Virus record (IMG/VR): IMGVR_UViG_3300019458_000022
DNA length: 62,812 bases
Reading direction: 5' to 3' (one strand)
From: a virus
Below, one piece after another: positions 806 to 15,488 of this stretch. Each line of letters opens with the position of its first letter. The stretch's first letter is position 1. A program made the position numbers and the translations under genes. The notes beneath the pieces were generated by a model. The model had not been told where the DNA came from and made no database searches. It was given only the letters and a program-made list of their open reading frames with translations.

Positions 806-2506
806 TCACGCCCCGATGTTCGTGGCCGCGTTGTCGTCCTGATCCCATTCGGTTCCGCAGGCGGTGCAACGATGCCTGAGGATCTTGCGGTTCCAGGTCT
901 GGATCGACCCGCAGGCGTGGCACTTTGCCGTCGTATTCTTCGCATTGACGAGCACGGTCTCGGCCATGCCCTCCTTGATGCACTTGAGGAGTTCCGAGAG
1001 GCATGCATCGCGGACGTGCTCCTTCAAGGCACCGTCCTTCGGCTCCTGCTCGGCCTCCGGCGTCTCGTGGAAGTCCCGGAGATCCAGCTTCTCGACCCTC
1101 GCCGTGTGGTAGGCCCGCCGCCTCTCCGCGATGAAGTTCCTGAAGATGTCGGTGCGGCGGTTCTGAAGCTGGTCGCGCAGGTTCGACTGGTACTCGCAGA
1201 GGTGCCGATCGTGCTTGCGCCACTCCTCCAGGGTCTTGAAGATCTCGTCGTCTCCCTGGAAGCGGGCATCGCGCCAGCGGATGACGAGCCGGGCAAGCCT
1301 GGCCTGCGACTTCCACTGGGCGACCGTCCTGGCGGCTTCACGGAGCCAGTCGGGCAGGTTCTTCTGGTTCTTGAACCACTCGACGAAATCGGCGCGCATC
1401 TTGTTCATGTTCTTGTCGCGGATCGACTGGATGTCCTCGGTCTTCCTCATCCCCGACATCCAGTGGCCGGGCAGCGCGAGTTCGCCTTCGTTGCCGTCGC
1501 TCCCTTTCCAGTAGGCGACCCGCATCGAGCCGTCCTTGCGCCGCGTCTTGCCGTCGTCCCCGGTCACGCGCCAGCCCACGTCGATCGAGACCGTTCCCTC
1601 GGCCGCGCAGTCCGGCTTGTTCCATCCGATGGCCCTGGAAAGCACGAACTGGACCCGCCATTCGCAGTGCGTGCCGATCCGGCGGCGGACCAGATGCACC
1701 CACTTGATCTTGGCGTCCCAGGGAATGGGACGGTGAAGGACGATGGGAATGACGGCGAAGACGGGCGCGCCGCTTTCGTCGCTTCCGACGCGGAAACGGA
1801 CGCGCGTCCGGAGCCTCGCGGCCTTGCTCAGGCGCGGACCGATGAAGTCCGGGGGTTCCTCGATGGGCAGCGGGTCGATCTGGATTCGCCTATCCCGTCC
1901 GGCAAACGCCTCCTCCGGCGAAATCCCGTGCTGCACCTGGACGGCCAGGTGTCCGCCGCCGTCGCGACGCGAGAATTGGGGCGGCGGACCGCTCCTGTCC
2001 ACCGTGGTCCCGATGAAAAGGCGCGTTCCCCAGTAGAGCCCCATCCGGCCGATCGTGGCGTAGAGCCGCTTCTTCTTTTCCTCCGCGCGGCCGTCGATCT
2101 CGGCGCCGATAGGCTCCCAGGCTTCCGACGCGAATAGCTCCGTTCGGATGGCCTTCCGTTCCTTGCAGAGCCGCTTCAGTTCCGTAGCCGAGGCGCCCGC
2201 GCGCTTGGCGGCCTCGGCCGGGATTACCTTTGTTCGGGCGAACGCGCTCACCTGGTTGATCGTGTTCCTGGCGTGGTTCAGTTCGGCGTTCGTCGCCGTG
2301 ATCGCCGCCTCGATCCTCACAAGGTCGGGCGACATCCTGCAAAGCGCGGCGTCGGTCTTTCTCCGCCGGTCGCGTTCGACCGCCACGAGCGCATTCCGGT
2401 ACCGGCGCGCGAGTTCCATCTGCTGGTCCACGAACTCCGCCGCTTCGACCGGGGGTTTTGCGCCGTAGGAGTAGAATCGGGAGGGCAGGCTGTCATTCCC
2501 AAACAT
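806..2506 (-). CDS. cas12m: Type V-M (V-U1/C2c4) Cas12m-like effector, about 566 aa
   Basis: Adjacent to the array. Cas12m-type motifs GLYWG, RRDGGGHLAVQVQ, LHRPIP, AQWKS. RuvC-I SIDVGWR, RuvC-II VEKLDL, CxxC-CxxC zinc finger, RuvC-III DQDDNAATNI. SD AAGAGGAG upstream of ATG 2506. Confidence 0.9.
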   Translation of the reverse strand: MFGNDSLPSRFYSYGAKPPVEAAEFVDQQMELARRYRNALVAVERDRRRKTDAALCRMSPDLVRIEAAITATNAELNHARNTINQVSAFARTKVIPAEAAKRAGASATELKRLCKERKAIRTELFASEAWEPIGAEIDGRAEEKKKRLYATIGRMGLYWGTRLFIGTTVDRSGPPPQFSRRDGGGHLAVQVQHGISPEEAFAGRDRRIQIDPLPIEEPPDFIGPRLSKAARLRTRVRFRVGSDESGAPVFAVIPIVLHRPIPWDAKIKWVHLVRRRIGTHCEWRVQFVLSRAIGWNKPDCAAEGTVSIDVGWRVTGDDGKTRRKDGSMRVAYWKGSDGNEGELALPGHWMSGMRKTEDIQSIRDKNMNKMRADFVEWFKNQKNLPDWLREAARTVAQWKSQARLARLVIRWRDARFQGDDEIFKTLEEWRKHDRHLCEYQSNLRDQLQNRRTDIFRNFIAERRRAYHTARVEKLDLRDFHETPEAEQEPKDGALKEHVRDACLSELLKCIKEGMAETVLVNAKNTTAKCHACGSIQTWNRKILRHRCTACGTEWDQDDNAATNIGA

Positions 2507-2545
2507 ACGTTCTCCTCTTCTTAGGCAAGACCCATGCCTGTGCAA

Positions 2546-11455: not shown

Positions 11456-12124
11456 CTAAAGAACCATCGGCTCCACGGCTTCCGGATCGCTCCAGATTTC
11501 CCGAACTAGGCCGCTGTTGCCCTCGATCGGGGGCGTAATCGGGACCCCATCCAGATGCGTCACGAGGACGGGCACGTTCGGCAGCAGGCTGACCTCCCAT
11601 TGGTCCTCGCCGTAGTACATGAAGGACGTGAAGCCGTACTCCCAGTCCACGTCCGACGCCTTGACGAGGCCCGTCATGACGACGTCGCGCGTTTCCACGC
11701 TGCTATGGGGCACGACACCGAAGACGCCCGCGCCGCGCGGGTCCTTCGACCACGCCTTGCCCAGATCGTCGAAGTGGACGACCGGGTTTCCTTCGGAATC
11801 CAAGGGGACCCGCACGGCCCGGTAGATCGTCACCGCTCCATCCCGATAGACGTCACGAGCGAAATCGCTGTAAATCTCAGCGCGTTCCCCGTAGAACTCG
11901 TCGCCGAGACCGCGGTGCTGCTCGTTCATCTCCTCGACATAGGACTCCAAGTCGCCGACGTGCCGTAGTGCCCACCGGAAGGCCGTGGCGCCGTCGCGCA
12001 GGAAGGATGGGACCTTCCGGTGCTTCATGGTCCAGGCCATTGTACGGAACAATTGGTGGGCGGGGAAGGACTGGAACCTCCGGCCTCCACCGGCTTTCGC
12101 CAGCGCCTCGGACTGCCCGCTCAC
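11456..12124 (-). CDS. ADP-ribosyltransferase-like protein
   Basis: IYRAV...LGKAWS...EDQWEVSL; related to 41487-42071. Confidence 0.55.
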   Translation of the reverse strand: MSGQSEALAKAGGGRRFQSFPAHQLFRTMAWTMKHRKVPSFLRDGATAFRWALRHVGDLESYVEEMNEQHRGLGDEFYGERAEIYSDFARDVYRDGAVTIYRAVRVPLDSEGNPVVHFDDLGKAWSKDPRGAGVFGVVPHSSVETRDVVMTGLVKASDVDWEYGFTSFMYYGEDQWEVSLLPNVPVLVTHLDGVPITPPIEGNSGLVREIWSDPEAVEPMVL

Positions 12125-12280
12125 GGAAGACCGTTTCACCCCTCCACACCCGGGTGGAAAGCGCTGGAAGCGGGGTTCCCTGAGATCTATGATCTACCCG
12201 TGGCAAAACGCGCGTCTTGCCTGGCCTATCATCGCGTCCGGAACGGCCCCAAGGCAGTGACGCCACACTGGAACCAATGA
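12119..12280. repeat. divergent promoter module + peptide ORF 12200-12280 (copy 3)
   Basis: Diverged copy of the 9081-9254 module; peptide stop overlaps ATG 12277. Confidence 0.85.
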
Positions 12281-12936
12281 CGCTCGAAGCACGACACTTC
12301 GTCGCCGGAGGCCCCGCGGTGGTGGACCGGATTAGCGCCGCCGGGGTAATCCTCCCCTCCGCCGAACGGATGTACAGGTCCGACGCCATCCAGGCATGTG
12401 ACGTCTGGTGGTACAACAATGTGATGCTGGACTTACCATTTTATGCCGGAAAAAGGACTATCAAAGACCGATGGCGTTCGGCGCTTCTTGATATTGTCTG
12501 GGAACGCATTGACGAGCTACCGGAGGAGCCTGCTGGAAAACGCCTGCCGACTATGATTGGCTGTCTCGATATTATGGCGGGAGACCACGAGAATGTCTTT
12601 CTGGCGGTTGATGCCTGGGTGAGTTATCCACGAAACGGCTTCGTTTTCGACGCCTTCGAACTCGTTGCAAAAGGCGCGGGCATCCGGCTTGACGATTTCC
12701 GGGATGGTTACCGGCTCGCACTCACGAAAACGGGCCGGGCAAAGAGCGTCGGCGCGATGAGGGATGCTATTCTGCGTGCGATTGGAACGGTTAAGCGCCA
12801 CGAACTTCACGGACGCGAAGCGAAGGAGGCGCTTTTGAGATTCCGCCACGGGGAATATACCGAGGTCGTCTGGCCTGGACCGCTTCCCGTAGAATGGGCG
12901 ATGGCCGTTTGGAAGCAAGATTCACAGGTGGCCTAA
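12277..12936 (+). CDS. hypothetical protein, possibly ART-fold
   Basis: RH...GVILP...VFL...GFVFD...EVVWPGPLP. Confidence 0.55.
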   Translation: MTLEARHFVAGGPAVVDRISAAGVILPSAERMYRSDAIQACDVWWYNNVMLDLPFYAGKRTIKDRWRSALLDIVWERIDELPEEPAGKRLPTMIGCLDIMAGDHENVFLAVDAWVSYPRNGFVFDAFELVAKGAGIRLDDFRDGYRLALTKTGRAKSVGAMRDAILRAIGTVKRHELHGREAKEALLRFRHGEYTEVVWPGPLPVEWAMAVWKQDSQVA

Positions 12937-12997: not shown

Positions 12998-13075
12998 TGG
13001 CGGGCAGGGAAGGACTTGAACCTCCGACCTCCACCGGCCTAAGCCAGCGGCGCTCTTTCTCTGAGCTACCTGCCC
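12998..13075 (-). ncRNA. tRNA-like RNA 2: the anticodon arm is an 8-bp stem with a UUAG tetraloop
   Basis: GGGCAGG/CCTGCCC acceptor, GCTC/GAGC D stem, GGAGG-TTCAAGT-CCTTC T arm, encoded G-CCA; CCGCTGGC-TTAG-GCCGGTGG replaces the 7-nt anticodon loop. Confidence 0.8.
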
Positions 13076-13079
13076 ACAA

Positions 13080-13152
13080 TGGTGGGGAGGCCACGGCGCG
13101 ACCCGTGGACTTCCGGACCGAAGCCCGGCGTGCCGCTTGACACCACCTCCCC
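13080..13152 (-). ncRNA. tRNA-like RNA 1: the anticodon arm is a 6-bp stem with a UUCG tetraloop
   Basis: GGGGAGG/CCTCCCC acceptor, A-CCA end, D-like stem GTGTC/GGCAC, CCGGGC-TTCG-GTCCGG, T-like stem CCACGG/CCGTGG with a non-canonical loop. Confidence 0.7.
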
Positions 13153-13158
13153 GCGCGA

Positions 13159-13509
13159 TCAGTTCGAGACCTCCTCGTGTTCCGGACTCCAAAGAGGGAA
13201 CTTCTTGAACGCCTTGCGCGCGTCGCCCGAGATGGGCTCCGTCGCGAACGCGGTCGCCTGGTCTCCGAAGTCGTCCTCGACCCAGAGGTAGTGGCGGATT
13301 CCGCGGAGCGAGCAGTTGGCGGCGGCTACGCGGAGCGCGGCCTCGTCAGGGACGGTGCAGAACACGATCGAGGAAATGTCGCGTGGGTTTCCGAATCTGA
13401 TGCCGCACTCGTGGGCGGCGTGGAGAGCCTGAACGGCCTGGTGGACGGCGGGAATGTCCGAACGGACGACGACGTAAATGTAGCCCTTGGCTTCCTACGT
13501 GTCCTTCAC
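13159..13509 (-). CDS. Pth2-like peptidyl-tRNA hydrolase with an in-frame UAG (13495-13497)
   Basis: SD AAGGAGGT, then GTG AAG GAC ACG TAG GAA...; YVVVRSDI....QAVQALHAA...EDD..DQATAFATEP pattern of the PTH2 family. Confidence 0.8.
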
Positions 13510-13577: not shown

Positions 13578-13606
13578 AGACTATCCTGCAATCCCCCATG
13601 TGTCAA
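13578..13606 (-). promoter_or_regulatory. sigma70 promoter of the pth2 / tRNA-like operon
   Basis: TTGACA-17 bp-TAGTCT. Confidence 0.75.
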
Positions 13607-13615
13607 GAAAAAAAT

Positions 13616-13689
13616 TGGTGCTCCCGCCGAGACTTGAACTCGGCTGCGGGCTTTTAGAGAGCCCTGGCCATCCGCTGGCCCACGGGAGC
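13616..13689 (-). tRNA. amber suppressor tRNA, anticodon CUA
   Basis: GCTCCCG/CGGGAGC acceptor, GGCC/GGCC D stem, GGGCT-CTCTAAA-AGCCC anticodon arm, CCGAG-TTCAAGT-CTCGG T arm, A-CCA. Confidence 0.92.
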
Positions 13690-13736: not shown

Positions 13737-14990
13737 CGATCCCCAGCCCTAAAGGGCGGGGCTTTTGACTGAGCTATGAGGACGACCGAAGAAGTCCAGA
13801 AGCTCGCCAATACGGGTGGCGTTACGATCACCGCGTATCTCTCGCGGTTCCACCCCGCCCGCGGCGACGTTCACGGAGGCGTTCGCATCCGCGTCCATCC
13901 TCCCGCAGGTTGCGCAAAGAAACTTCGCCCCGTCCCGTCGTCCGATCTTGGAGCATTTGTGGCAGGTCACGCTTGTGCGGAACGGGTTGACGTGCTCCGT
14001 CACGAGCCCGACGCGGAGTGCCTTGTATTCGGAGAACGTCTGGCACTCCCGAAAGGCCCACCCAGCAACCATCCGGTTGAGATGGGGGTTGCGCGTCCGG
14101 GTGCGCTTCCGGATTCCTTTCAAATCCTCGAACCGGATGACGCCGAACCCACCCCTGAGAGCTTCCTCCACGATGGACTTCGAGACGTTGTGGTTCACCC
14201 ATGCCTTCCAGCGCCGCTCCCTGCCGCTCAAGCGTCTCAGGGCGCGCTTGGCGCCCCGAGTGCCTTTGCTCTGAAGCGACGCCCGGACACGGGCAAACTC
14301 CGCTTTCTTGGCCTGAACTGCTACACCAGATATTGTCTTGCCGCTCGACATCGTGGCGATGTTGTGGATGCCGAGGTCAATCCCGAGAGGCGGGCCTCCG
14401 CGCTTCGGAGGTTCTGTTTCTTCAATAGCGATGTGGATGTCCCAGTTCTTGCCGTTCCGAACCACACGAGCACAGGTAGGTTGTTTCCCGACAAGTTGCT
14501 CCCTTTGGAACCCGCCGATCTTGAGCGGGATGTGGAGCCTTCCTTTGAGCGTAGTCACGGAGACTGTCTCGTCCGTCTCTCGGTAGTCGAAGATTCGAGC
14601 ATCGTAGTCGATGCTCGTTGGACGAAACTCGGAAACGCGCTTTCCGCGCTTGGCGGCGATCTTGACGGCGTAGGCGACCCGAGCGATGGCACGGATGGCG
14701 AGGTTGGCGGAGAGGCCGAAGTCCTTCCGTATCTCCCGGTAGCAAGCGCGCTGGAGCTTGACCTTGTTGGAGGTCTTGAGCCTACGGGAATGGCCGAGGA
14801 CGGCGTTGCAGGCATTGGCGAACGCCTTGGTTGTTTCGAAGAGCGCCTGTTCCATAATTGGCGTGGGAGCCATCCTGCATTTGACGGTACGTTGCATTAA
14901 GAAGAAGCTATCACATATGGTTTTTGATGTCAAAGAGGGCGGCGCTTCCTCCCCACGGCTGAAGCCGGGGGCTTCCGCGCCGTCCAATTC
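13733..14990 (-). mobile_element. IS200/IS605-family (IS1341-like, TnpB-only) element
   Basis: Left-end hairpin GAAG-CCCCCGGCTTCAGCCGTGGGG after target TCAC; right-end hairpin AAAG-CCCCGCCCTTTAGGGCTGGGG ending in TTAC; no tnpA. Confidence 0.85.
13749..14897 (-). CDS. tnpB: RNA-guided endonuclease TnpB
   Basis: LGIDLG, FEDLKGIR, TSVTCHKC...CATC, DADANASVNV; own promoter TTGACA at about 14927. Confidence 0.93.
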   Translation of the reverse strand: MQRTVKCRMAPTPIMEQALFETTKAFANACNAVLGHSRRLKTSNKVKLQRACYREIRKDFGLSANLAIRAIARVAYAVKIAAKRGKRVSEFRPTSIDYDARIFDYRETDETVSVTTLKGRLHIPLKIGGFQREQLVGKQPTCARVVRNGKNWDIHIAIEETEPPKRGGPPLGIDLGIHNIATMSSGKTISGVAVQAKKAEFARVRASLQSKGTRGAKRALRRLSGRERRWKAWVNHNVSKSIVEEALRGGFGVIRFEDLKGIRKRTRTRNPHLNRMVAGWAFRECQTFSEYKALRVGLVTEHVNPFRTSVTCHKCSKIGRRDGAKFLCATCGRMDADANASVNVAAGGVEPREIRGDRNATRIGELLDFFGRPHSSVKSPAL

Positions 14991-15032
14991 GTGAACATGG
15001 AAAGGGTTCCCCGAGGGCGGTAGAATAACCGG

Positions 15033-15488
15033 ATGGGACGTCGCATCACGGAGGCTGAGTTCCAAAGCGTCCTCGCGGAGGTCCGCGACAGGATTCTTGA
15101 TCGGATGGCCGAGACGGGCTTCTGGAACGAAGGCGTCCTGCGTCGCGACGCCACCACCTGGGACATCAACAACGGTTGCTGCGAGGAATTCGCCGACGAA
15201 GTGATCCTAGAACTCGCCCAAAGGTACGGCCAGGGCTTCCCCGGCGAACATTACGAGACTTTCGCCTACCGCGCAACCGGCGCCGAAGCCATCGAACTTC
15301 CCGATCCCGACGACCCCGACGATTTGCTAGGTCATGCCGTTGTCATTTGGAGAGGGCGGTACTACGACGCGGAGTGCATCACCGGCGTAAAGGACTGGAA
15401 GACGCTTCCACTTGTCAAGAATCGTGATCTTAGCCGCCAGGAGATGCTCCTCAAGCGCCGAGGAGACGCGCGTTGGAGTAGGTGCTGA
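15033..15488 (+). CDS. papain-like fold protein (leaderless)
   Basis: INNGCCEEFA...GHAVV..RGRYYDAE; ATG 6 nt after TAGAAT. Confidence 0.65.
   Translation: MGRRITEAEFQSVLAEVRDRILDRMAETGFWNEGVLRRDATTWDINNGCCEEFADEVILELAQRYGQGFPGEHYETFAYRATGAEAIELPDPDDPDDLLGHAVVIWRGRYYDAECITGVKDWKTLPLVKNRDLSRQEMLLKRRGDARWSRC

What the first reader, a model, noticed from the sequence alone, without database searches (positions are those of the whole stretch)
12998..13152. Tandem tRNA-like RNAs with tetraloops instead of anticodon loops
Seen: both have perfect 7-bp acceptor stems, a discriminator base and encoded CCA, 4 nt apart. Their anticodon arms are extended stems capped by UUCG and UUAG. Intact pairing in unrelated sequences argues against random decay. 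The UUAG loop is complementary to CUAA in the suppressor anticodon loop. Inference: non-decoding RNAs that act as decoys for anticodon nucleases or uncharged-tRNA sensors, as aminoacyl donors or Pth substrates, or as an anti-tRNA that tunes the suppressor.
Basis: partly seen in the sequence, partly recalled or inferred. Interest (0 to 1): 0.8.

Follow-up and report, generated by a model that had tools for sequence, protein, structure and literature searches.

The report
Phage tRNA mimics without anticodons
Two neighbouring tRNA-shaped RNA genes have a closed hairpin in place of the anticodon loop; relatives in large uncultured phage-like elements keep this shape through compensating mutations, so they are selected non-decoding tRNA look-alikes whose role is still unknown.

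Summary
On the minus strand, 13152..13080 (type I) and 13075..12998 (type II) fold as cloverleaves. Each has a perfect 7-bp acceptor stem, a discriminator base and an encoded CCA, and they lie 4 nt apart. Their anticodon arms are closed by UUCG (6 bp) and UUAG (8 bp).

Both belong to conserved RNA classes found in about 20 related metagenomic and IMG/VR contigs. There were 21 and 25 distinct sequences, 98-99% of stem positions paired, and every pair of the extended anticodon stems showed compensatory change. Thirty-three of 44 caps are GNRA and 3 are UUCG.

They sit in a fixed cassette: amber-suppressor tRNA(CUA), then a Pth2-fold gene with a conserved in-frame TAG near its start, then the mimics, usually as I-II pairs. 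The first mimic typically starts 6 nt after a stop codon.

The window's UUAG cap is an outlier, because its nearest relatives have GAAA. The proposed pairing with the suppressor anticodon is therefore not a family feature. Acceptor stems vary, which argues against specific aminoacylation.

The most likely role is processed, non-decoding "top-half" tRNA mimics tied to the Pth2-like/suppressor circuit. The mechanism is inferred, not shown. This scan found the same family earlier on other DNA (e1-5362005). I found no published description.

The parts
13080..13152 (-). Type I tRNA mimic. It has a 7-bp acceptor stem, a GUGU/GCAC D stem, a 6-bp anticodon stem capped by UUCG, a 6-bp T stem with a 6-nt loop GUCGCG, A73 and CCA. 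It starts 6 nt after the TGA of the Pth2-like gene.
   Evidence: Sequence and fold. Rfam tRNA 23.8 bits. Own model R2 gives 90.6 bits and this is the only such hit in the window with filters off.
13076..13079 (-). 4-nt spacer UUGU between the two mimics. In relatives the I-II spacer is 0-4 nt, mostly 1 nt.
12998..13075 (-). Type II tRNA mimic. Acceptor GGGCAGG, D arm GCUC-AGAGAAA-GAGC, 8-bp anticodon stem capped by UUAG, normal T arm, G73 and CCA.
   Evidence: ARAGORN 'tRNA-???'. Rfam tRNA 47.2 bits. Own model R1 95.3 bits.
13159..13509 (-). Pth2-fold gene (P0001, 116 codons). It has a GTG start 5 nt after AAGGAGG and an in-frame TAG as codon 5 (13497..13495).
   Evidence: Translation. AlphaFold pLDDT 88.6. 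The top Foldseek hits are all Pth2-type hydrolases, TM about 0.7. An early in-frame TAG is kept in nearly all of about 85 homologous loci.
13578..13606 (-). Promoter-like TTGACA, 17 nt, TAGTCT in front of the Pth2-like gene and mimics. The same two hexamers and spacing occur in L002 and L031.
   Evidence: Read from the sequence. The consensus scanner did not list it.
13616..13689 (-). Amber-suppressor tRNA, anticodon CUA, a normal cloverleaf with encoded CCA.
   Evidence: ARAGORN. Rfam tRNA 48.8 bits. Fold z -4.0.
12054..12122 (-). Decayed remnant of a type II mimic. The anticodon arm (GAAA cap), T arm and 3' end are kept. The D arm is lost and the acceptor stem is broken.
   Evidence: R1 55.1 bits. 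Sequence and fold show no cloverleaf, z -0.19.

Best explanation
The two genes encode stable, processed, non-decoding tRNA mimics of two conserved classes. They are made as a I-II dimer from the transcript that also carries the amber-gated Pth2-like gene. I consider this part well supported, at about 0.85.

Their acceptor/T-arm half and CCA end look like a tRNA, so RNase P-type 5' processing and CCA-end or shape readers can accept them. Their anticodon arm is sealed by a GNRA or UNCG cap, so they can neither decode nor be read through an anticodon.

The mechanism is inferred, at about 0.3. The mature RNAs act as competing, uncharged 'top-half' ligands for a protein that handles tRNA 3' ends. 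The most likely partner is the cassette's own Pth2-like protein. That protein is made only when the neighbouring tRNA(CUA) reads its early UAG. The mimics would then set the threshold of a circuit that keeps stop-codon readthrough in bounds, in an element where TAG ends about half of the genes.

Cleavage at the 5' end of the first mimic would also end the Pth2-like mRNA 6 nt after its stop codon.
For: Architecture.

Conservation with covariation: type II has 25 distinct sequences, 98.1% of cells paired and 16 of 24 pairs with two-sided change. Type I has 21 distinct sequences, 98.7% paired and 17 of 23 pairs with two-sided change. Slid controls give 40-55% paired. The result holds on plain MAFFT alignments.

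Caps: 33 of 44 are GNRA and 3 are UUCG.

Strand: G-U pairs fit only this strand.

Contrast with decay: a truncated copy in the same window has lost its fold.

Fixed cassette order and I-II pairing with 0-4 nt spacers, often duplicated.

Spacing: the stop codon lies 4-7 nt before the first mimic in 14 of 16 loci.

Neighbouring gene: it has a Pth2 fold. Its early stop codon is kept across about 85 loci, and in L126 it changes to TGA together with a UCA anticodon.

Cost of readthrough: TAG ends 27 of 55 confident ORFs here.

Class-specific loop and D-arm sequences stay constant while the stems change.
Against: Nothing is experimental. Transcription, processing, charging and binding are all untested. 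Type II-like RNAs with 4-6-nt loops occur in two near-complete phage records with no detectable Pth2-like gene, so the partner need not be that protein. Cultured jumbo phages and the more distant metagenomic loci have the gated gene and the suppressor but no mimics, so the circuit works without them. The hydrolase activity of this divergent Pth2-like family is unproven: there is no Pfam hit, and the profile match to a solved Pth2 has E = 0.32.
Confidence: 0.4

Rival explanations
1. Decoys for host factors that read the free CCA end or overall shape of uncharged tRNA. Candidates include 3'-end-modifying abortive-infection toxins (MenT/AbiEii-type nucleotidyltransferases, CapRel-type pyrophosphokinases, HepT-type nucleases) and RelA. 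The mimics would soak up these factors during infection without disturbing decoding.
For: The CCA is invariant, the acceptor and T arms are intact, and the I-II pairs are duplicated, which suggests dosage. Type II-like RNAs occur in phage records that lack the Pth2-like gene. tRNA-repair genes lie near distant cassettes: RtcB, a Macro domain and a tRNA nucleotidyltransferase. That such toxins target tRNA 3' ends is established knowledge and was not tested here.
Against: No such toxin or sensor is identified for the unknown host. This account does not explain the fixed position directly behind the Pth2-like stop codon.
Confidence: 0.22
2. Mainly cis-acting processing modules. Any tRNA-shaped structure directly after the stop codon recruits RNase P, which defines the 3' end of the upstream mRNA and so its stability or its release from ribosomes. 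This would resemble mascRNA behind MALAT1. The released RNAs would be by-products.
For: The stop codon lies 4-7 nt before the first mimic in 14 of 16 loci, including loci where another ORF intervenes. Earlier notes of this scan report relatives in which the Pth2-like ORF runs straight into the suppressor tRNA (e1-3754321, e1-3288186; not checked here).
Against: One element would be enough, yet two distinct classes are kept as pairs and duplicated. Later copies lie far from any stop codon. Class-specific loop sequences (GUCGCG, AGAGAAA) are conserved. Type II-like RNAs also occur inside ordinary tRNA arrays.
Confidence: 0.2
3. Aminoacylated carriers: amino-acid donors for a non-ribosomal transferase, or true substrates of the Pth2-like hydrolase.
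For: The CCA end and intact acceptor helix are present. Precedents from the literature are B. cereus tRNA-Other and irregular tRNAs that are charged but not used in translation (PMC5389517).
Against: Acceptor pairs 2:71, 3:70, 4:69, 5:68 and 7:66 and the discriminator (A or G) all vary. No G3:U70, G-1 or long variable arm is present. There is no anticodon for the synthetases that need one. No transferase gene is linked.
Confidence: 0.08
4. Anti-tRNA. The UUAG cap of RNA 2 pairs with CUAA of the suppressor anticodon loop and tunes the suppressor.
For: The 4-nt complementarity exists in this window.
Against: It is 1 of 44 distinct caps. The closest relatives have GAAA in the same stem, and the common GAAA, GCAA and UUCG caps have no complement in CUCUAAA. 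Four base pairs between a tetraloop and a 7-nt loop is a weak, chance-level match.
Confidence: 0.03
5. Decaying tRNA pseudogenes or chance cloverleaves.
For: ARAGORN gives 'undetermined' for one and misses the other. Fold z-scores are only about -2.5.
Against: Stems are 98-99% paired with many compensatory changes across loci whose neighbouring protein is only about 60% identical. The real pseudogene in the same window has lost its fold.
Confidence: 0.02

Closest known systems
mascRNA / MEN-beta tRNA-like RNAs behind MALAT1 and NEAT1 (known from the literature; Rfam RF01684)
   Same: A cloverleaf with a reduced, non-decoding anticodon arm lies directly behind another RNA. RNase P cleavage would form both the upstream 3' end and the small RNA, which ends in CCA.
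   Different: Those are eukaryotic, the CCA is added rather than encoded, there is one element rather than two classes in pairs, and there is no link to a suppressor tRNA or a hydrolase. RF01684 matched only the suppressor tRNA here, below threshold.
Gammaherpesvirus 68 tRNA-like vtRNAs (TMERs) (from the literature)
   Same: Virus-encoded tRNA-shaped RNAs that are processed by tRNA enzymes, not aminoacylated, and placed at the head of other RNAs.
   Different: They belong to an animal virus, are made by pol III, keep an anticodon-like loop, and serve to process microRNAs.
tmRNA tRNA-like domain and the YrlA tRNA-like module (from the literature)
   Same: Bacterial RNAs that keep the acceptor/T-arm half of a tRNA and lack a decoding anticodon loop.
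   Different: tmRNA carries G3:U70 and is alanylated, and it has an mRNA part. YrlA is bound by Rsr. Neither signature is present here, and ARAGORN finds no tmRNA.
Irregular tRNA polycistrons and allo-tRNAs of Acidobacteria (Mukai et al. 2017, PMC5389517)
   Same: Tandem, non-standard tRNA genes in GC-rich soil metagenomes. Some are suppressor-like, some are charged but not used in translation, and some are linked to mobile or toxin-antitoxin genes.
   Different: Those keep 7-nt anticodon loops and differ by 8/4 or 9/3 acceptor/T branches. The mimics here have 7/5 (type II) or 7/6 (type I) branches and no anticodon loop.
Dimeric tRNA precursors of phage T4 (from the literature)
   Same: Phage tRNA genes lie 1 to a few nt apart and are processed from a common precursor.
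   Different: The T4 products are decoding tRNAs.
Amber-gated Pth2-like gene with its own suppressor tRNA
   Same: This window carries that cassette. The gate is confirmed here across about 85 loci and in cultured jumbo phages.
   Different: The mimics are an addition found only in a GC-rich uncultured sub-clade. Most cassettes lack them.

Membership tests
Canonical decoding tRNA (Rfam RF00005) | Cloverleaf with a 7-bp acceptor stem, a discriminator and a CCA end | tested here: met
   Both RNAs meet this. The CCA is encoded.
Canonical decoding tRNA (Rfam RF00005) | Score at or above the family's gathering score (29 bits) | tested here: inconclusive
   Type II scores 47.2 bits and passes. Type I scores 23.8 bits and fails.
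Canonical decoding tRNA (Rfam RF00005) | 5-bp anticodon stem with a 7-nt loop (U33, three-base anticodon, purine 37) | tested here: not met
   The arms are 6 bp + UUCG and 8 bp + UUAG. Relatives have 5-9 bp stems with 4-nt caps, mostly GNRA. ARAGORN reports a 2-nt 'anticodon'.
Canonical decoding tRNA (Rfam RF00005) | D-loop G18-G19 and a 7-nt T loop (T54-Psi55-C56) forming the elbow | tested here: not met
   Type II has a normal T loop, but its D loop AGAGAAA lacks GG. Type I has a 6-nt T loop GUCGCG on a 6-bp stem and a 4-6-nt D loop.
Aminoacylatable tRNA-like RNAs with anticodon-independent identity (Ala, Ser, Leu, His types) | G3:U70, or a long variable arm, or G-1:C73 | tested here: not met
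   3:70 is G:C or C:G, the variable region is 4-5 nt, and no G-1 is present. Acceptor pairs vary among relatives.
tmRNA | tRNA-like domain plus a tag reading frame | tested here: not met
   ARAGORN finds no tmRNA and Rfam gives no tmRNA match.
mascRNA-like 3'-end processing modules | A tRNA-like structure directly behind the functional end of an upstream RNA | tested here: met
   The first mimic begins 6 nt after the TGA of the Pth2-like gene, and 4-7 nt after a stop codon in 14 of 16 loci.
mascRNA-like 3'-end processing modules | RNase P cleavage demonstrated at the junction | not testable with these tools
   This needs 5'/3' end mapping or an in vitro RNase P assay.
Pth2 peptidyl-tRNA hydrolase (Pfam PF01981), for the neighbouring gene | Pth2 fold | tested here: met
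   The model has pLDDT 88.6. The top 11 Foldseek hits are Pth2-type proteins (1q7s, 1wn2, 2zv3, 1xty, 1rlk, 3erj) and the unannotated 2gax, with TM 0.66-0.73.
Pth2 peptidyl-tRNA hydrolase (Pfam PF01981), for the neighbouring gene | Significant sequence match to the family model | tested here: not met
   There is no Pfam hit at E <= 0.01. The profile against solved structures gives E = 0.32 to a peptidyl-tRNA hydrolase.
Pth2 peptidyl-tRNA hydrolase (Pfam PF01981), for the neighbouring gene | Ester-bond hydrolysis of peptidyl- or aminoacyl-tRNA | not testable with these tools
   An enzyme assay is needed. R-x-D, Q..H-A and T-E-P motifs are conserved, but the Gly-Lys of classical Pth2 is not aligned.

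The most novel reading that the evidence does not exclude
The suppressor tRNA, the stop-gated Pth2-like enzyme and the anticodon-less mimics together form a self-contained controller of stop-codon readthrough. In this reading, readthrough makes the enzyme and the enzyme discharges or clears the suppressor. The mimics titrate the enzyme and so set a sharp threshold. This would let an element whose genes mostly end in TAG use a UAG-reading tRNA safely. It would be the first RNA-decoy-tuned feedback loop acting on a tRNA.
Probability: 0.15. Interest if true: 0.9.

Novelty: new variant of a known kind. Interest (0 to 1): 0.72.

Why it matters
tRNA-shaped RNAs that do not decode are known from a handful of systems: tmRNA, mascRNA, herpesvirus vtRNAs and YrlA. 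Here a whole family in large phage-like elements has swapped the anticodon loop for a hyperstable cap. It has kept that state under clear selection, next to a stop-codon-reading tRNA and a tRNA-hydrolase-like gene that only that tRNA can unlock.

If the mimics bind a tRNA 3'-end enzyme or sensor, they would be a new kind of phage tool for steering host or phage translation. They would also be a compact natural part for controlling amber suppression.

On the practical side, gene finders call them 'undetermined' tRNAs or miss them, and they split the neighbouring gene at its TAG. The whole cassette is therefore invisible in current annotation.

Tried and rejected
- No DNA match in the GenBank phage collection.
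- No whole genome is held for the window.
- GTDB species genomes contain neither the Pth2-like protein nor the type II motif.
- A first loose type I pattern gave 58 viral hits, of which only 3 contigs were real. The rest were chance matches in GC-rich coding DNA.
- The exact 3' end of type II found nothing.
- Global TAG recoding is rejected. TAG ends 27 of 55 confident ORFs. The TAG junctions where both sides look coding are followed within a few codons by a start codon. Eight of 27 are in frame, which matches chance.
- tRNA introns are rejected because the arm is only 3 nt longer than normal.
- A four-base-anticodon frameshift suppressor is rejected because the 'loop' closes into Watson-Crick pairs that covary.
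- The TnpB gene upstream is absent from all related cassettes, so it is unrelated.
- Pfam and PHROG scans of 20 larger ORFs gave almost no annotation and no phage hallmark genes in this window.
- Literature searches for anticodon-less or tetraloop tRNA-like RNAs in phages, and for the conserved motifs as strings, found no description. The supplements of Mukai et al. are not held.
- A tertiary D-loop/T-loop pairing in type I is supported by only 1 of 3 variants and is not claimed.

Full report
**What is there**

Read on the minus strand, the stretch contains two cloverleaves.

- RNA 1 (13152..13080, 73 nt): acceptor GGGGAGG/CCUCCCC, D arm GUGUC-AAGC-GGCAC, anticodon arm CCGGGC-UUCG-GUCCGG, a 4-nt variable region, T arm CCACGG-GUCGCG-CCGUGG, then A73 and CCA.
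- Spacer: four bases, UUGU.
- RNA 2 (13075..12998, 78 nt): acceptor GGGCAGG/CCUGCCC, D arm GCUC-AGAGAAA-GAGC, anticodon arm CCGCUGGC-UUAG-GCCGGUGG, a normal T arm GGAGG-UUCAAGU-CCUUC, then G73 and CCA.

The minimum-energy folds are exactly these structures. ARAGORN calls RNA 2 an undetermined tRNA with a two-base 'anticodon' and misses RNA 1. The Rfam tRNA model gives 47.2 bits for RNA 2 and 23.8 bits for RNA 1, against a threshold of 29.

**Surroundings**

Upstream on the same strand lie three features.

- A TnpB-type gene at 15065..13749.
- A normal tRNA with anticodon CUA at 13689..13616.
- A TTGACA-17-TAGTCT promoter-like site, followed by a 116-codon gene at 13509..13159. This gene starts with GTG behind a strong AAGGAGG and has TAG as its fifth codon.

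Its product has no Pfam match. It folds with high confidence (pLDDT 88.6) into the Pth2 peptidyl-tRNA hydrolase fold. The best solved matches are human Bit1/PTRH2 and archaeal Pth2 enzymes, with TM about 0.7. RNA 1 begins 6 nt after this gene's TGA.

The rest of the window is mostly unannotatable. It holds a Cas12-like gene, an integrase, an M48 peptidase and a glycosyltransferase.

**Relatives**

The protein led to several sets of related loci:

- 2 IMG/VR loci;
- 9 loci from assemblies;
- 79 metagenome loci;
- none in one-genome-per-species prokaryote references.

Contigs reach 175-236 kb, and IMG/VR classes several as viral.

In the closer relatives (roughly 55-80% protein identity) the same order recurs: tRNA(CUA), gated gene, then tRNA-shaped genes with closed anticodon arms and encoded CCA.

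These RNAs fall into two classes.

- Type I, like RNA 1: GUGU/GCAC D stem, 5-6-bp capped arm, 6-bp T stem and a 6-nt T loop, nearly always GUCGCG.
- Type II, like RNA 2: D loop AGAGAAA or a normal AGUUGGUA, 7-9-bp capped arm and a normal T arm.

They usually occur as I-II pairs 0-4 nt apart, and the pair is often duplicated.

**Selection**

I built covariance models R1 (type II) and R2 (type I) and aligned all strong hits.

| Measure | Type II | Type I |
|---|---|---|
| Distinct sequences | 25 | 21 |
| Stem cells paired | 98.1% | 98.7% |
| Pairs with two-sided change | 16 of 24 | 17 of 23 |
| Anticodon-stem pairs with two-sided change | 8 of 8 | 6 of 6 |

Sliding the 3' partners by 1-3 columns drops pairing to 40-55%, and no shuffle reached the observed values. 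The result does not depend on the model-fitted alignment. Plain MAFFT alignments with my hand-written structure give 96.3% and 98.8% paired, with 15 and 8 compensated pairs.

About 10% of paired cells are G-U. These would be A-C mismatches on the other strand, so the RNA comes from this strand.

The window also holds a truncated type II copy at 12122..12054. It has lost its D arm and acceptor pairing and no longer folds as a cloverleaf. This shows what real decay looks like in the same DNA.

**The caps**

Of 44 distinct sequences, 33 end the arm in GNRA (GAAA 17, GCAA 15, GUAA 1) and 3 in UUCG. The rest vary.

The window's UUAG is unique. Its nearest relatives (L061, L117, L070, L071) have GAAA in an almost identical stem. 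Complementarity of the cap to the suppressor's CUAA is therefore not conserved, and the common caps have no complement in CUCUAAA.

Selection acts on a closed, stable arm, not on the loop sequence.

**Identity elements**

Acceptor pairs 2:71, 3:70, 4:69, 5:68 and 7:66 change freely, and the discriminator is A or G. There is no G3:U70, no G-1 and no long variable arm.

With no anticodon either, specific charging by a standard synthetase is unlikely. This weighs against the amino-acid-donor and true-Pth-substrate readings.

What stays constant is the shape, the CCA, and class-specific D-arm and T-loop sequences. That pattern points to recognition by shape-reading or end-reading partners.

**The cassette**

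Almost every homologue of the gene, down to 35% identity, has an in-frame TAG within its first few codons (MT*, MxDT*, MS* and similar). Most loci with enough flank also have a tRNA(CUA) within about 1 kb.

In L126 the early stop is TGA and the adjacent tRNA has anticodon UCA. L106 and L144 are ungated.

Cultured jumbo phages carry the gated gene. Serratia phage BF starts M-T-H-TAG. Acinetobacter phage ME3 starts M-T-TAG and has an annotated CTA tRNA. Neither has mimics nearby. The mimics are therefore an addition in one GC-rich uncultured sub-clade.

TAG is not recoded in this element. It ends 27 of 55 confident ORFs, against TGA 25 and TAA 3. The in-frame TAG junctions between coding segments are ordinary gene boundaries. 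Strong suppression would therefore be costly to the element itself.

**Position**

In 14 of 16 loci the first mimic starts 4-7 nt after a stop codon, and mostly exactly 6 nt. This holds even where an extra small ORF lies between the Pth2-like gene and the mimics.

The RNAs are therefore most likely co-transcribed with the gene. Their 5' processing would trim the mRNA to a few bases past its stop codon. This echoes the way mascRNA defines the MALAT1 3' end.

**Reading**

Shown:
- These are selected, non-decoding, tRNA-shaped RNAs of two classes.
- They belong to the suppressor/Pth2-like cassette.

Inferred:
- They are cut out by tRNA-processing enzymes.
- They act through their acceptor/T half as uncharged competitors for a tRNA 3'-end-handling protein.

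My best guess for the partner is the co-encoded Pth2-like protein, whose synthesis reports readthrough. The mimics would then tune a feedback loop on suppression.

Three observations keep the rivals open:
- Type II-like RNAs with 4-6-nt loops occur in near-complete phage records with no Pth2-like gene.
- Gated cassettes exist without mimics.
- The spacing rule would fit a cis-acting processing role.

The live rivals are therefore host-factor decoys and cis-acting processing modules.

**Known or new**

The literature library holds no description of such RNAs or of the cassette. The nearest report is Mukai et al. 2017 on irregular tRNA polycistrons in Acidobacteria, but those RNAs keep anticodon loops.

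This scan noted the same family before on the 236-kb contig that I reached independently as L031/L076 (e1-5362005). It has also noted the gated cassette several times.

I class the mimics as a new variant of a known kind, namely non-decoding tRNA mimics.

Noticed in passing
window 12054-12122 (-): A truncated type II mimic. It keeps the ancestral GAAA cap, T arm and CCA but has lost the D arm and acceptor pairing. It lies 13 nt upstream of an ATG at about 12041. It may mark a rearrangement that inserted the opposite-strand gene at 12217-12936 into a former array.
   Followed up: partly
window, whole: TAG is the commonest stop codon among confident ORFs of at least 100 codons (27 TAG, 25 TGA, 3 TAA). 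It is often followed by GA/GG, so it doubles as part of the next gene's Shine-Dalgarno. This is unusual for 62% GC DNA and odd for an element that carries a UAG-reading tRNA.
   Followed up: partly
window 13495-13509 (-), and loci L001-L148: The early in-frame stop of the Pth2-like gene is kept across about 85 loci. In L126 it is TGA and is paired with a tRNA of anticodon UCA. L106 and L144 have no gate.
   Followed up: yes
type I T loops, alignment A8: Positions 3-6 of the 6-nt T loop are CGCG (17 sequences), CAUG (2) or UAUG (1). All are self-complementary, allowing G-U. This would permit a kissing homodimer, but there are too few variants to claim it.
   Followed up: no
L070:1926-2052 and L002:3985-4077 (= L063:3359-3451): Further tRNA-shaped RNAs occur in the same arrays. 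One is 127 nt with a large insertion in the D region carrying several GAAA loops. Another is 93 nt with an elaborate central arm. Both have a normal T arm and CCA.
   Followed up: no
L155:5035-5108 (-): An RNA with the type I body (GUGU D stem, 6-bp T stem, 6-nt T loop) but a normal 7-nt loop with anticodon UUG and U1:A72/G73, the Gln-type identity. It is a possible ancestor of type I.
   Followed up: no
L150:2787-2863, L151:2802-2877, L149:6676-6750, L154:4026-4102: Type II-like RNAs (D loop AGAGAAA) with 5-, 6- or 7-nt AU-rich loops that ARAGORN reads as Ile(AAU) or Phe(AAA). They lie inside tRNA arrays of large IMG/VR phages. Two of the records are 98-100% complete and have no Pth2-like gene.
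   Followed up: partly
L066 (RtcB), L068 (Macro domain), L159 (tRNA nucleotidyltransferase), L157 (glutamyl-tRNA amidotransferase-like): Distant copies of the gated gene sit beside tRNA repair and tRNA metabolism genes.
   Followed up: no
window 13749-15065 (-): A TnpB/IS605 OrfB-type gene lies directly upstream of the suppressor tRNA. It is absent from all related cassettes, so it is probably a recent insertion.
   Followed up: no
window 806-2545 (-): A 579-aa protein with a Cas12f-like TNB domain. Earlier notes describe a CRISPR array beside it.
   Followed up: no
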